From the NCBI GenBank assembly GCA_042216335.1, contig JBDGTY010000047.1:1-11115 (forward strand): a stretch of DNA of 11,115 bases, read 5' to 3'. Every line of letters begins with the position of its first letter. Positions within the stretch are counted from its first letter, which is position 1. Positions 2,670 to 6,232 of this stretch are shown one piece after another. The DNA is from Candidatus Nanohalobium sp. Its GTDB lineage: Archaea > Nanohalarchaeota > Nanosalinia > Nanosalinales > Nanosalinaceae. The position numbers and the translations under genes are program-made. Below the pieces are notes generated by a model. That model was not told the DNA's origin, did no database searches, and saw only the letters and a program-made list of their open reading frames with translations.

Positions 2670-3011
2670 TCACGGCCCCATGTTCCAGTACTTCGAGATT
2701 AAGAGAGACAGTGCTCCGCCTATGAGGAACATTCCTACTGATATTTGAAGTGCTGCTTGCCCAGGTATTCGTTGCCAGGTTGCGTAGATGTATGCTGCGA
2801 ATGCTATGTTTATTCCGAAGAGTATCGGGTTCTGGAAGTTCCCGAGGCTGCCCCAGGCTTTTTCAGCTCCTCTGAACTGGAAGAGTATCCATCCAGCCAT
2901 GAACGTGGTTATTATTCCTGCTGTGAGGTCGGATTGGGTGTAGCTGAGGTAGCCAATGACTGCTGAAAGTGCTGCGATGAAAAATGTTTTTGCCGGCATT
3001 TTCTGTTCCAT
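2670..3011 (-). CDS. Small hypothetical membrane protein (about 4 TM segments)
   Basis: 113 aa with four hydrophobic stretches; no family recognised. Confidence 0.75.
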   Translation of the reverse strand: MEQKMPAKTFFIAALSAVIGYLSYTQSDLTAGIITTFMAGWILFQFRGAEKAWGSLGNFQNPILFGINIAFAAYIYATWQRIPGQAALQISVGMFLIGGALSLLISKYWNMGP

Positions 3012-3034
3012 GAAGTTCTGGAAGGGTTTAAGGG

Positions 3035-3441
3035 GTGAAATGACCCGCTATCAAATCAGGAGATTTGGAAGGGGCTTCCGTATGGGTCTGTTTCTTCATC
3101 TTTTCCAACCTTGCCGTTACAGCGTCTAATCTGTAACCATTACGGAACTTACGCTTTGAGGAAGGCTGAATTAGGGAAACCATTCCCACATCTTAACCAT
3201 CAAAGATGGTTTCCTTATTCGCTCAGTGGTTGTTCCACGCAACTCACTACACCATCCGTTTCCGAAATGGGAAACATTTGGCTTACCTTTGAGTTCAGGG
3301 TTGCTGTTTGTTGATGAGGCAGTAAGCCCTAACCAAACTGCCGTGAATACTATGGTTATAGACCGTGAAACTTTAAAATCTGTCGAGTCATCCCTAACCA
3401 TAAATCACAGATCTGAGAACAAGGGTCTTCTCAACAAGGAG
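3035..3441 (-). mobile_element. Putative non-autonomous IS200/IS605-type element / orphan omega-RNA-like structured RNA
   Basis: On the minus strand it is preceded by TTTAT (3446-3442) and ends GGAAGCCCC-hairpin-GCGGGTCATTTCAC (3079-3035). At least 8 inverted-repeat stems inside; no TnpA or TnpB ORF. Confidence 0.6.
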
Positions 3442-3454
3442 ATAAAAGGTTTTC
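3442..3454 (-). promoter_or_regulatory. BRE/TATA-like element GAAAACCTTTTAT
   Basis: Purine-rich BRE followed by TTTTAT, resembling the other upstream elements in the window; points into the 3035-3441 element. Confidence 0.5.
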
Positions 3455-3474: not shown

Positions 3475-4269
3475 ATGCATCCAGTGACCCGTGTTGGAGA
3501 GGAAAACATGCATCTCAGAGACTCGGAGAAGGACTCCAGACTCCAGCTTATCTTCGTTCCCGGAATCTTCTCACCGGAGGCCTGGAAGTACCAGATGAAC
3601 TACTTCTCTGAGGATTACAGGGCGATCAGTTTCTGGCCCACTCTCAGCAACAGGGACCTGGAAGGACACAGAAAAGCACTGAAAAACATACTAGACCAGA
3701 AAGATGTCGACAACGCGGTCCTGATCGGAGCAAACTTCACAAACCCCGTCATCCAGGGATTTGAGGCTCGTGAGGACGTGGCGGGGACCGTACTGGTCGG
3801 AGCGAAGAGAAAGCTGAAGAAAGGAGTGCCTAAAGAGGTCTACCAGGCACTGACATCGAAGAAATTTCCTGTAAAACTTTCGAAAAAACTGTTCTTCTCC
3901 TCGATGAGGTACAGGGAAGTCCGGAACTTCTGCAGGGATACGGAGTTCATCGGTTTCGATGACTTTAAGACCTTCCAGAAGCGTTTCGGCGTAAGACAGC
4001 CTGAAAAAGAGGCGTTGATCGTCCACGGGAAGAATGACTTCTTCTCAGATGAGGGATACGCCCGGGAGCTGATGTCAAGTGCATCCGTCTCGGTTCTGGA
4101 CGCGGGCATCTTCAGCTTCTACGAGAAGCCTCAGGAGTTCAACAAGACATTGAACGACTTCCTGTTGAAGATCAAGAGGAAGGCCGTTCAGGAGAGGATC
4201 GAGGAGACGAAGGAAAGGAACCGGACACTGGAAGAATTCGAGAAAAAACTGGCGAAGGTGAAGAACTAG
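3475..4269 (+). CDS. Alpha/beta-hydrolase-fold protein, probably catalytically inactive
   Basis: Start taken at ATG 3475. LIFVPG...WKYQ, AVLIGANF, LIVHGKND and AGIFSFYEKPQEFN follow the family pattern but lack the nucleophile Ser and catalytic His. Charged C-terminal helix. Confidence 0.82.
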   Translation: MHPVTRVGEENMHLRDSEKDSRLQLIFVPGIFSPEAWKYQMNYFSEDYRAISFWPTLSNRDLEGHRKALKNILDQKDVDNAVLIGANFTNPVIQGFEAREDVAGTVLVGAKRKLKKGVPKEVYQALTSKKFPVKLSKKLFFSSMRYREVRNFCRDTEFIGFDDFKTFQKRFGVRQPEKEALIVHGKNDFFSDEGYARELMSSASVSVLDAGIFSFYEKPQEFNKTLNDFLLKIKRKAVQERIEETKERNRTLEEFEKKLAKVKN

Positions 4270-5821: not shown

Positions 5822-6232
5822 ATGAAAGAGCTAAACGAATTACTGGCTGGACTTGCAGCACCTTCAGGACCTGAGCTAATCGTCGGAACCTTGGCAGGAT
5901 CAGGAGCAGTTTACCTAGGCCAAAAAGCACAAAATGCAGCAAAAGAGGCTGAAAATGACTGGAGAGAACTAAGTGAACTCAAGAAAGACCTTGAGGCCAG
6001 CAGAGCCCAAGACTTTCAAAACAAAGATATCCTCCACAAACTGGAGAACTTTAGCGACACGTTCTATTTCCGTAAAGTCAGAGACCTGTACGAGGAAGAA
6101 AGTCTAGACACCGGCTACGACAGCGAAGATTTCCTCAGAGTGAATCTAAACTACGATCAACTTGAAAAGACAGAGACAAAAAAGAGAAATATTACAGAAG
6201 ATCAGAACATAGACGAATACCTAGAAGCCTGA
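5822..6232 (+). CDS. Hypothetical protein with a possible N-terminal membrane anchor
   Basis: 136 aa; hydrophobic/Gly segment LIVGTLAGSGAVYLG followed by an acidic helical region; starts 2 nt after the upstream stop. Confidence 0.7.
   Translation: MKELNELLAGLAAPSGPELIVGTLAGSGAVYLGQKAQNAAKEAENDWRELSELKKDLEASRAQDFQNKDILHKLENFSDTFYFRKVRDLYEEESLDTGYDSEDFLRVNLNYDQLEKTETKKRNITEDQNIDEYLEA

What the first reader, a model, noticed from the sequence alone, without database searches (positions are those of the whole stretch)
3035..3441. Protein-less 407-bp element with IS200/IS605 ends: candidate orphan TnpB omega-RNA
Seen: on the minus strand the segment follows TTTAT and ends ...CGGAAGCCCCTTCCAAATCTCCTGATTTGATAGCGGGTCATTTCAC. 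No target duplication is evident and there is no transposase or nuclease ORF. Established: IS200/IS605 elements insert 3' of a short AT-rich motif (TTTAT and TTTAA are known targets) and end in TCAA or TCAC. A 4-nt guide 5' of the subterminal hairpin pairs with the cleavage site (IS608: GAAT/TCAA), so TCAC requires GAxG, and GAAG is present at that position. The right end also encodes the TnpB omega-RNA scaffold, with the flanking DNA acting as guide. Inference: a non-autonomous element that keeps an unusually long RNA scaffold and could guide a TnpB/Cas12f-like protein encoded elsewhere. The predicted guide is CCCUUAAACCCUUCCAGAAC (3034-3015).
Basis: partly seen in the sequence, partly recalled or inferred. 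Interest (0 to 1): 0.8.

Follow-up and report, generated by a model that had tools for sequence, protein, structure and literature searches.

The report
Protein-less transposon carrying a guide RNA
This 407-base insert is a gene-less offshoot of an IS200/IS605 (TnpB-type) jumping gene that still carries the folded guide-RNA part of its parent; the kind is already known, but this family is shared by two distant groups of salt-loving archaea.

Summary
Window 3035-3441 is missing from the orthologous locus in 3 of 3 other genomes of the genus and in one of another genus. The flanks there join as ...TTTAAGGG|ATAAAAG..., with no target duplication. On the minus strand the insert follows TTTAT and ends in TTCAC.

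It has no coding capacity and matches no Rfam family. It consists of a left end, the decayed 3' end of a tnpB gene and a right end. All three are homologous to tnpB-bearing, and in one case Y1-tnpA-bearing, elements in related genomes.

The last 263 nt fold into a covarying RNA. Across 51 distinct relatives, 91.6% of cells pair, against 33-50% when partners are slid. The fold includes the guide-adjacent pseudoknot that is typical of TnpB omega-RNAs.

This is a palindrome-associated transposable element (PATE) carrying an omega-RNA, a kind already in print. The same family occurs in Nanohaloarchaeota and in Ca. Methanohalarchaeum thermophilum, where the model finds 133 matches.

The window's own assembly holds no Y1 transposase and no cognate TnpB. 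Present-day activity is therefore unproven.

The parts
3442..3446 (-). Target motif / predicted TAM, TTTAT, immediately 5' of the left end
   Evidence: The same motif precedes 10 of 12 protein-less copies. It also precedes the tnpB element L025 and the own genome's tnpB element.
3382..3441 (-). Left end (LE): CTCCTTGTTGAGAAGACCC, a subterminal hairpin, then GGTTAGGGATGACTC
   Evidence: Aligns to the sequence just upstream of the 428-aa tnpB in L025. Conserved in 12 copies, with a hairpin of varying sequence. Homologous to the LE of the tnpA+tnpB element L050.
3372..3378 (-). A/T-rich box (TTTTAAA): inferred archaeal TATA-like promoter element, 26-28 nt upstream of the conserved GGCAG hairpin
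   Evidence: An A/T-rich box lies at this place in 12 of 12 copies, judged by eye on the alignment. The spacing was measured in 3 copies. Promoter function is inferred and was not tested.
3318..3342 (-). Conserved hairpin GGCAG...CTGCC, found only in protein-less copies; predicted 5' end of the transcript
   Evidence: One search shows it in 10 of the 12 copies, all except G053_C5 and G039_C22. Not seen in the tnpB-linked L025.
3159..3291 (-). Decayed 3' end of a tnpB gene, which forms the 5' half of the omega-RNA scaffold
   Evidence: Aligns to L025/L027 nt 1727-1864, that is the last ~115 nt of the tnpB ORF plus ~20 nt downstream. No open frame.
3035..3297 (-). Omega-RNA-like structured region (10 helices plus a pseudoknot)
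   Evidence: Model R1 scores 239.5 bits here. Covariation.
3233..3238 (-). Pseudoknot 5' strand, GUGGAA, in the loop of helix 3
   Evidence: Pairs with 3035-3040. 98.7% of cells pair in 51 distinct sequences; the sixth pair is GC in 29, CG in 15 and AU in 3.
3077..3146 (-). Extra domain (stem TCCGUA/UACGGA enclosing a hairpin), present in protein-less copies and absent from tnpB-linked relatives
   Evidence: helices 8 and 9, 96% paired, compensatory changes.
3035..3078 (-). Right end (RE): GAAG, an imperfect palindrome (CCCC...AAAUC/GAUUU...GGG), a linker, and the terminal TCAC. The last 6 nt form the pseudoknot 3' strand.
   Evidence: The inner hairpin covaries (helix 11). The terminal 50 nt match contig starts in G039 at 86%.
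3015..3034 (-). Predicted guide (the flank 3' of the RE), CCCUUAAACCCUUCCAGAAC. It is also the 23-nt stretch between the insertion point and the ATG of gene 2670..3011.
   Evidence: Follows from the rule that the omega-RNA guide is the DNA just outside the RE. In empty sites this sequence lies directly after TTTAT. No expression data.

Best explanation
Window 3035-3441 (sense on the minus strand) is a recently inserted, protein-less derivative of an IS200/IS605-family element of the tnpB-only (IS1341) lineage, that is a palindrome-associated transposable element (PATE).

Shown:
- It is an insertion without target duplication, 3' of TTTAT and ending in TCAC.
- Its left end, its decayed tnpB 3' end and its right end are each homologous to parts of tnpB- and tnpA-bearing relatives.
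- Its 3' 263 nt belong to an RNA family with strong covariation. The last six nucleotides before the flank pair with an upstream loop, which is the pseudoknot geometry of TnpB omega-RNAs.

Inferred:
- It moved as single-stranded DNA through a Y1 (HUH) TnpA supplied in trans, which recognises the similar subterminal palindromes of the LE and RE.
- An internal TATA-like box drives a transcript of about 310 nt that runs through the RE into the flank. That would give an omega-RNA whose guide is 3034-3015.
- A compatible TnpB supplied in trans would use it to cut the empty site (TTTAT + CCCTTAAACCC...), and homologous repair would then restore the element.

The assembly of this genome holds neither a Y1 transposase nor the cognate TnpB type. 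This copy is therefore probably stranded at present, although structurally intact.
For: **Insertion**
- Empty sites in G001, G002, G003 and G009, flanked by orthologous genes.

**Family and ends**
- Other copies lie at unrelated sites: G002 has 3, G053 and G039 have more, the SCG-AAA382B04 archaeon has copies, and Ca. Methanohalarchaeum thermophilum has many.
- TTTAT precedes 10 of 12 copies. 47 of 51 distinct members end in TTCAC.

**Link to tnpB and tnpA**
- Element nt 6-57 align upstream of, and nt 151-283 align to the 3' end of, a 428-aa protein with OrfB_IS605 (92 bits) and Cas12f1-like TNB (43 bits) domains.
- Model R1 also hits the tnpB-linked sites in G002:C12, G039:C24 and G069:C14 at 119-121 bits.
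- 11 of 12 short-form sites checked in G070 have TnpB similarity just upstream.
- G039:C2 carries Y1 tnpA (131 bits) plus tnpB between homologous LE and RE.

**RNA structure**
- Seven sequences: 90.5% of cells paired, against 34-46% when slid; 32 pairs changed on both sides, against 1-10; 0 of 500 shuffles reach this.
- 51 distinct sequences: 91.6% against 33-50%; 47 of 56 pairs, against 11-24; 0 of 500 shuffles.
- The pseudoknot was not part of the model, yet pairs in 98.7% of cells with three pair types at its sixth position.
- In ISDra2 the nucleotides -2 to -6 next to the guide pair with a 5' segment (passages of PMC10097598).

**Not a housekeeping RNA**
- No Rfam match.
- RNase P and SRP RNA candidates lie on other contigs.
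Against: - No transcript evidence: no RNA run holds the stretch.
- The own assembly (96.2% complete, 74 contigs) has 0 matches to Y1_Tnp.
- Its only tnpB is split over two contig ends. It is 31-43% identical to the cognate type, and its RNA region is not recognised by R1 even with filters off.
- In G070 none of the 12 tnpB-like regions checked has an uninterrupted frame of 250 aa or more. The proposed partner may therefore often be dead.
- The helices other than the pseudoknot were drawn by eye from these sequences and then counted on a model-fitted alignment, which inflates pairing.
- The promoter is a conserved A/T-rich box only.
- The DNA-level GAAG/TCAC pairing is recalled from IS608 and was not tested.
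Confidence: 0.85

Rival explanations
1. Inert relic. The element is a deletion remnant that no longer makes a functional RNA. The structural signal belongs to the ancestral tnpB-linked omega-RNA and has not yet decayed in this copy.
For: - No cognate TnpB and no TnpA in the assembly.
- No RNA evidence.
- A clearly degenerate right-end fragment exists on C39 of the same genome.
- The tnpB copies checked in G070 look broken.
Against: - The long form, with its extra domain and GGCAG hairpin, is found only in protein-less copies. It covaries among them across two phyla.
- The window and G002:C12 copies differ by compensatory changes (AACCAUC/GAUGGUU against AACCGUC/GACGGUU; UCCGUA/UACGGA against UCCGAG/CUCGGA).
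- All helices and the pseudoknot are intact in the window copy (239.5 bits).
Confidence: 0.3
2. Exapted promoter or leader. The main present-day effect is on the neighbouring gene 2670..3011 (minus strand). The insertion separated that gene from its TATA-like TTTTAT box, so the gene is now transcribed from the element's internal promoter as a long structured leader.
For: - In empty sites TTTTAT lies 23 nt upstream of the gene's ATG. In the window it lies 430 nt away.
- The element points towards the gene.
- The gene is still an intact 113-aa frame.
Against: - This is purely positional, and no promoter or transcript was mapped.
- Other copies sit in unrelated contexts. The G053 copy, for example, points at the 3' end of a convergent gene.
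- It would be a side effect of this insertion, not what the family is.
Confidence: 0.2
3. The element belongs to another transposon type that also inserts without duplication, such as IS607 (serine recombinase with tnpB) or a rolling-circle IS91-like element, and is not mobilised by a Y1 TnpA.
For: - TnpB genes also occur in IS607 elements (passages of PMC10055086).
- Most relatives found here carry tnpB alone.
- No transposase was tested.
Against: - The one relative with a transposase and homologous LE and RE carries a Y1_Tnp gene.
- The ends have the IS200/IS605 layout: an AT-rich penta-nucleotide target at the LE only, similar subterminal palindromes at both ends, and a terminal TCAC.
- No serine recombinase gene was seen beside the tnpB copies examined. 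This was by ORF listing only; no family search for serine recombinases was run.
Confidence: 0.05

Closest known systems
PATEs (palindrome-associated transposable elements) of haloarchaea, e.g. Haloquadratum walsbyi HqIRS families (PMC3119063; passages read)
   Same: - No inverted terminal repeats, no target duplication, and too short to encode a protein.
- Near-terminal palindromes like those of IS605-type transposons.
- Some copies arose from tnpB elements by internal deletion.
[quoted passage not shown]
   Different: - That paper predates omega-RNAs and does not describe an RNA structure.
- Sequence relatedness to the HqIRS families was not tested, because their sequences are in supplements I could not see.
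- The hosts here are Nanohaloarchaeota and Methanonatronarchaeia rather than Halobacteria.
PATE-like elements with omega-RNAs in Geobacillus stearothermophilus (Meers et al., PMC10055086; passages read)
   Same: These are minimal IS200/IS605 elements without protein genes. The authors say they 'often encode' omega-RNAs that would need a TnpB supplied in trans by another IS. That is the same logic proposed here.
   Different: - Those are bacterial, with different sequences and TAMs.
- Here the protein-less form has a longer scaffold than the tnpB-linked form, with an extra domain and a 5' hairpin, plus an apparent own promoter.
- Here no compatible TnpB is seen in the same genome.
ISDra2 TnpB omega-RNA (PMC10097598; passages read), and sotRNAs of IS1341-type genes in Halobacterium (PMC4615843; listing and start of abstract only)
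   Same: - The RNA overlaps the 3' end of tnpB and runs through the RE into the flank.
- The nucleotides just 5' of the guide pair with an upstream segment to form a pseudoknot.
   Different: - The ISDra2 scaffold is 116 nt with four stems. Here 263 nt with ten helices are modelled.
- No sequence similarity was tested.
- Binding and cleavage are not shown here.
IS608 (IS200/IS605 prototype) end architecture (recalled; also mentioned in the passages of PMC10055086 and PMC3119063)
   Same: - Insertion 3' of a short motif.
- Subterminal hairpins at both ends.
- A tetranucleotide 5' of the RE hairpin, and a terminal cleavage tetranucleotide a few nt 3' of the hairpin.
   Different: - The target is TTTAT (IS608: TTAC, recalled) and the end is TCAC (IS608: TCAA, recalled).
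- By the same recalled rule, the tetranucleotide at the LE does not obviously fit the target.

Membership tests
IS200/IS605 family, non-autonomous derivative (PATE) | Insertion without target-site duplication | tested here: met
   The empty sites of G001, G002 and G003 join the two flanks exactly, with one ambiguous G.
IS200/IS605 family, non-autonomous derivative (PATE) | Insertion 3' of a short conserved target motif at the left end only | tested here: met
   TTTAT precedes 10 of 12 copies, TCTAT one and TTTAA one. The flanks otherwise differ.
IS200/IS605 family, non-autonomous derivative (PATE) | No terminal inverted repeats; similar subterminal palindromes at both ends | tested here: met
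   The LE carries GAAGACCC..hairpin..GGGATGA and the RE carries GAAGCCCC..hairpin..GGG+linker+TCAC. The hairpin sequences covary between copies (helix 11). No dedicated search for terminal inverted repeats was run; the ends were read by eye.
IS200/IS605 family, non-autonomous derivative (PATE) | Too short to encode, and not encoding, a transposase or nuclease | tested here: met
   The longest internal ORFs are 76 and 67 aa, with no Pfam hit. The ATG of the 76-aa frame is not kept in the G002 copy.
IS200/IS605 family, non-autonomous derivative (PATE) | Ends shared with an element that encodes a Y1 (HUH) TnpA | tested here: met
   G039:C2 (L050) carries Y1_Tnp at 131 bits plus tnpB, between a homologous LE and RE ending GGTAGTGGGTAGTTCAC. 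This is in another genome; there is none in the window's own genome.
IS200/IS605 family, non-autonomous derivative (PATE) | Mobilisation by TnpA through single-stranded DNA, with DNA guide/cleavage-site pairing | not testable with these tools
   Only the presence of GAAG and TCAC was checked (6 of 7 sequences have GAAG).
TnpB omega-RNA | Derived from the 3' end of tnpB plus the RE, ending at the transposon boundary with the flank as guide | tested here: met
   Homology to L025/L027 nt 1727-1864 and to their right ends. The model ends exactly at 3035.
TnpB omega-RNA | Conserved secondary structure with a pseudoknot formed by the nucleotides next to the guide | tested here: met
   Geometry compared with the ISDra2 passages.
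TnpB omega-RNA | Expressed as an RNA | not testable with these tools
   No RNA holder listed. The promoter is inferred from a conserved A/T-rich box.
TnpB omega-RNA | Bound by a TnpB and guiding TAM-dependent DNA cleavage | not testable with these tools
   The cognate-type TnpB is present in G002, G039 and G069 but not in the own assembly.
Housekeeping or other curated RNA families (Rfam) | Match to a curated covariance model | tested here: not met
   0 matches at gathering score over the window. Only chance-level matches at E 0.9-3.5.

The most novel reading that the evidence does not exclude
The long form may be a self-propagating 'guide-RNA-only' transposon lineage, not a one-off deletion product. 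It has its own promoter, a PATE-specific 5' hairpin and an extra RNA domain, and it lives on the TnpA and TnpB of related IS elements. It has spread between a DPANN symbiont lineage (Nanohaloarchaeota) and a halophilic methanogen lineage (Methanonatronarchaeia), and in the latter it outnumbers its tnpB-bearing relatives several-fold. Because its TTTAT target resembles an archaeal TATA box, it would tend to land between promoters and genes and rewire them.
Probability: 0.35. Interest if true: 0.6.

Novelty: new member of a known kind. Interest (0 to 1): 0.42.

Why it matters
It gives a cleanly bounded, datable insertion of a guide-RNA-bearing, protein-less IS200/IS605 element in a genome of about 1 Mb from the nanohaloarchaeal symbiont lineage (relatives are labelled Ca. 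Nanohalobium). All three other genomes of the genus are empty at this site.

It also defines a covariance model for an archaeal omega-RNA family with 51 distinct members. That family can be used to ask two questions: do protein-less elements really borrow TnpB in trans, and what does the extra RNA domain do?

The cross-phylum distribution points to exchange of mobile elements among hypersaline archaea.

The kind itself (PATEs, often with omega-RNAs) is already described. This extends the kind and is not a surprise.

Tried and rejected
- **Known RNA families:** rejected. Rfam at gathering score and at E<=10 gave nothing meaningful. There are no tRNA or tmRNA genes. RNase P RNA and SRP RNA candidates lie on other contigs, below cut-off at 34 and 85 bits.
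- **Single-sequence folding:** uninformative about strand. z is -2.8 on the minus strand and -2.7 on the plus strand.
- **BLAST against tnpB loci:** only one short left-end match. A local alignment and the covariance model were needed to see the relationship.
- **RNA evidence:** no RNA holder listed.
- **Laying Logan contigs of four DNA runs:** this gave only fragmented short contigs over the element. Word depth was higher over 3163-3366 than over the flanks in X1. One low-depth contig of a relative in X3 joined 2911 to 3441. None of this is used as evidence.
- **Literature:** searches for 'Methanohalarchaeum' + 'IS605' (0 papers) and 'Nanohaloarchaeota' + 'TnpB' (1 unrelated paper) found nothing on this family in the held library. 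Subscription papers and supplements were not searched.
- **Earlier findings of this scan:** no notes for this genome.
- **Resident tnpB element:** R1 with filters off gave no real match (best 4.9 bits).
- **Not run:** structure prediction, complex prediction and protein database searches, because the element encodes no protein.
- **Not examined:** the catalytic residues of the related TnpB proteins.
Full report
**1. What is at 3035-3441**

Read on the minus strand, the segment is preceded by TTTAT (3446-3442). It starts CTCCTTGTTGAGAAGACCC and ends ...CGGAAGCCCCTTCCAAATCTCCTGATTTGATAGCGGGTCATTTCAC at 3035. It lies between two divergent genes, 2670..3011 (minus, 113 aa) and 3508..4269 (plus, 253 aa). 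The only internal ORFs are 76 and 67 aa, and neither has a Pfam match. Composition is unremarkable. There are no tRNA genes and no Rfam family matches at gathering score. With permissive thresholds only chance-level matches appear. Candidates for the archaeal RNase P RNA and SRP RNA lie on other contigs, so this is not one of those.

**2. It is an insertion, with exactly the stated borders**

The window is contig C42 of a 1.02-Mb genome in 74 contigs, 96.2% complete. A search of relatives and local BLAST showed that in G001 and G002, both of the same genus, the two flanks lie next to each other. The alignment gives ...GGGTTTAAGGG|ATAAAAGGTTTTCACTC... for G001. For the window it gives ...GGGTTTAAGGG[GTGAAATG...CAAGGAG]ATAAAAGGTTTTCAC.... 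The extra DNA is therefore 3035-3441, or 3034-3440 because one G is ambiguous. Nothing is duplicated at the junction.

Both flanking genes are orthologous in those loci (57% and 73% identity in G001; 56% and 68% in G002). The third genome of the genus, G003, has the same empty junction, TTTAAGGG|ATAAAAG. G009, of another genus, has the two gene starts 88 nt apart. So 3 of 3 other same-genus genomes are empty and the insertion is recent.

**3. It belongs to a repeat family with IS200/IS605-type ends**

BLAST over the 70 genomes held for the order found related DNA in 4 of them, counting the window's own.
- G002 has one close copy (83-94% identity, with about 110 extra bases) and two diverged copies.
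- G053 has one copy.
- In G039 the last 50 nt of the element (3035-3084) match the first bases of several contigs at 86%. That is what a multi-copy repeat does to an assembly.

An exact-pattern scan of the species collection with two right-end motifs gave 13 loci. They came from MAGs labelled Ca. Nanohalobium sp. and Ca. Asbonarchaeaceae, which by identical model scores and flanks are the G002, G053 and G039 copies. They also came from an uncultured archaeon, the single-cell genome SCG-AAA382B04, and Ca. Methanohalarchaeum thermophilum HMET1. The window therefore comes from a Nanohalobium-like nanohaloarchaeon.

In 12 protein-less copies aligned, the base just outside the left end closes TTTAT in 10, TCTAT in 1 and TTTAA in 1. 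The sequence further out differs between copies. Among 51 distinct family members, 47 end in TTCAC. The others end in GTCAC, TTTAC, TTCAT and GTTAC.

The left and right ends carry the same kind of module: GAAG(A)CCC(C), a hairpin whose sequence differs from copy to copy but stays paired, then GG(T)AGGGG. At the right end a short linker and TCAC follow. GAAG is present in 6 of the 7 sequences, and the seventh has AAAG. I checked only presence and conservation.

**4. Its parents are tnpB elements, and a relative with the same ends carries a Y1 transposase**

TnpB-type Zn-ribbon and RuvC-type domains occur in G000, G001, G002 and G039. A 428-aa TnpB gene is nearly identical between G039:C24 (L025) and G002:C12 (L027). 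It scores 92 bits on OrfB_IS605 and 43 bits on Cas12f1-like TNB.

A local alignment places element nt 6-57 just upstream of that gene in L025, again directly after TTTAT. It places element nt 151-283 on the last ~115 nt of the ORF plus ~20 nt downstream. The 407-nt element is therefore left end + decayed tnpB 3' end + right end.

Y1_Tnp was found in G002:C11, G039:C59 and G039:C2, but not in G000, G053 or G069. The G039:C2 element (tnpA, then tnpB) has a left end, GGTGAGAAGTCCCCCTCCTCACGGAACGAACGTGGAGTTAGGTTGAGGATGAATCGCC, that is plainly homologous to the left ends of the protein-less copies. Its right end reads GGAAGCCCCTTCC...GGTAGTGGGTAGTTCAC. This is the best available evidence that a Y1 TnpA moves the family. 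It is indirect.

**5. The 3' 263 nt are a structured RNA of the omega-RNA type**

I aligned the region from the tnpB remnant to the right end for five protein-less copies and two tnpB-linked elements (A2). RNAalifold proposed, among other helices, a pairing between a conserved loop, yGUGGAn, and the last six nucleotides of the element.

A structure drawn by hand has 57 pairs in 11 helices, including that pseudoknot. It pairs 90.5% of cells, against 34-46% when the 3' partners are slid by 1-3 columns. 32 pairs change on both sides, against 1-10 when slid, and 0 of 500 shuffles reach the observed values.

A covariance model without the pseudoknot (R1) was then used to collect and align 59 matches, 51 of them distinct (A3). 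On A3, 91.6% of cells pair, against 33-50% when slid. 47 of 56 pairs change on both sides, against 11-24. That alignment is fitted to the model, which favours the nested helices.

The pseudoknot was not in the model, yet it pairs in 98.7% of cells. Its sixth pair is G-C in 29 sequences, C-G in 15 and A-U in 3. The long protein-less copies have GUGGAG/CUUCAC, the tnpB-linked ones GUGGAC/GUUCAC, the window and its closest copy GUGGAA/UUUCAC, and L027 GUGACA/UGUCAC.

In the ISDra2 TnpB structure the nucleotides -2 to -6, next to the guide, pair with a 5' segment. That pseudoknot is described as common to all Cas12 guide RNAs (passages of PMC10097598). The geometry here is the same.

The window copy scores 239.5 bits, with every helix intact. 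It differs from the G002:C12 copy by compensatory changes in two stems.

**6. Long and short forms**

The tnpB-linked relatives match the model over about 175-190 nt. The protein-less copies match over about 250-285 nt. The extra length is a domain closed by the stem UCCGUA/UACGGA (window 3146-3077) with an inner hairpin (helices 8 and 9, 96% paired).

Upstream of the modelled part, 10 of the 12 protein-less copies share a hairpin, GGCAG...CUGCC (3342-3318). All 12 share an A/T-rich box (3378-3372), which lies 26-28 nt before the hairpin in the three copies where I measured it. L025 has neither at that place. I read the box as an archaeal TATA-like element. That would give a transcript of about 310 nt plus guide. 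This is inference only.

In the record that holds L066 (G070, Ca. M. thermophilum) R1 finds 133 matches, and in G071 (SCG-AAA382B04) 11. By the lengths listed, counted by hand, 19 of the G070 matches are short form. None of the 19 best-scoring G070 loci fetched has TnpB similarity within the locus; 2 of the 11 G071 loci do. Of 12 short-form G070 sites fetched, 11 have TnpB similarity just upstream, but none has an uninterrupted frame of 250 aa or more.

The long form is thus a lineage of its own, shared by two archaeal phyla. It is not a deletion that happened in the window's genome.

**7. What the window's genome can and cannot do with it**

The own assembly has no Y1_Tnp match. Its only tnpB is split between the end of contig C40 and the start of C31. 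It is 31% (N half) and 43% (C half) identical to the L025 protein. That element also sits after CTTTAT and ends GAAG-hairpin-GGATGTCAC, with a possible GUGACA/UGUCAC pseudoknot. However, R1 does not recognise its RNA region even without filters.

A second family trace in the genome is a degenerate right-end fragment of about 135 nt on C39, directly after the stop codon of an AbiEii-like gene. No RNA run holds the element. The copy is structurally intact, but its partners are not in the assembly.

**8. Mechanism proposed**

Shown: an insertion without duplication next to TTTAT; ends and internal parts homologous to tnpB/tnpA elements; a covarying RNA structure with the guide-adjacent pseudoknot.

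Inferred from established knowledge of IS200/IS605 and TnpB (passages of PMC10055086; partly recalled):
- A Y1 TnpA supplied in trans excises and inserts the top strand, using the subterminal palindromes.
- The element is transcribed through the right end.
- The resulting RNA carries the flank 3034-3015 (CCCUUAAACCCUUCCAGAAC) as its guide.
- A compatible TnpB would cut any copy of the locus that has lost the element. There TTTAT lies directly before the guide-matching sequence, as in the empty sites.

**9. Comparison with what is known**

PATEs were defined in Haloquadratum as transposase-free elements without inverted repeats or target duplications, with near-terminal palindromes related to IS605-type transposons. 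Some arose by core deletion, and one keeps a disrupted C-terminal coding part (passages of PMC3119063). Meers et al. found PATE-like elements in Geobacillus and wrote that PATEs often encode omega-RNAs that would need TnpB in trans (passages of PMC10055086). RNAs overlapping the 3' end of IS1341-type genes in Halobacterium were reported in 2015 (PMC4615843; listing and start of abstract only).

The element is therefore a new member of a known kind. Four things are not, to my knowledge, in print: this particular family, its spread across Nanohaloarchaeota and Methanonatronarchaeia, the extra RNA domain, and the apparent promoter of the protein-less form. This rests on two searches of the held library, which excludes subscription journals and supplements.

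**10. Verdict**

Identity as an IS200/IS605-derived PATE with an omega-RNA module: about 0.85. That this copy's RNA is made and used today: open, perhaps one in three. Interest is moderate.

Noticed in passing
window 3012-3034 and 3442-3450; gene 2670..3011 (minus): The TTTAT target is part of a TATA-like TTTTAT box. In empty sites this box lies 23 nt upstream of the ATG of the 113-aa gene. The insertion moved the box 407 bp away, so the gene must now be read from within or through the element. A TTTAT-targeting element would tend to hit archaeal promoters.
   Followed up: partly
G000:C39:1772-1906 (L043 1652-1786): A second trace of the family in the own genome. It is a degenerate right-end fragment of about 135 nt ending in GGTCACTTCAC, directly after the stop codon of a 271-aa AbiEii-like nucleotidyltransferase gene. 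It has no left end and no pseudoknot partner.
   Followed up: partly
G000:C40:7042-7762 and G000:C31:1-540 (L030, L029): The genome's only tnpB is broken by the assembly between two contigs. Its element follows CTTTAT and ends GAAG-hairpin-GGATGTCAC. It therefore has the same target and end type as the protein-less element, but a diverged RNA region.
   Followed up: partly
G070 (record of L066, Ca. Methanohalarchaeum thermophilum HMET1): There are 133 matches to the RNA model in a 2.1-Mb genome, mostly the long protein-less form. The 12 tnpB-like regions checked next to short-form matches all lack an uninterrupted frame of 250 aa or more.
   Followed up: partly
L002 about 1389-1500 (G002:C12 copy) and the G002:C1 copy (L010): Two G002 copies carry an extra block of about 110 nt made of several short hairpins, inserted at the same point inside the GGCAG hairpin. 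It may be a nested miniature element.
   Followed up: no
window 3163-3366, run X1: In the metagenome run that holds most of the stretch, summed word depth over the element's core is 2-4 times that of the flanks, and the contigs are fragmented there. Other copies or relatives may therefore be present in that community.
   Followed up: no
L063 about 5880-5959 (uncultured archaeon contig): A much shorter, AT-rich sequence follows TTTAT and ends GAGAAGCCCCTTCC-hairpin-GGTAAGGGTCACTTCAC. It may be a terminal-only mini version of the family.
   Followed up: no
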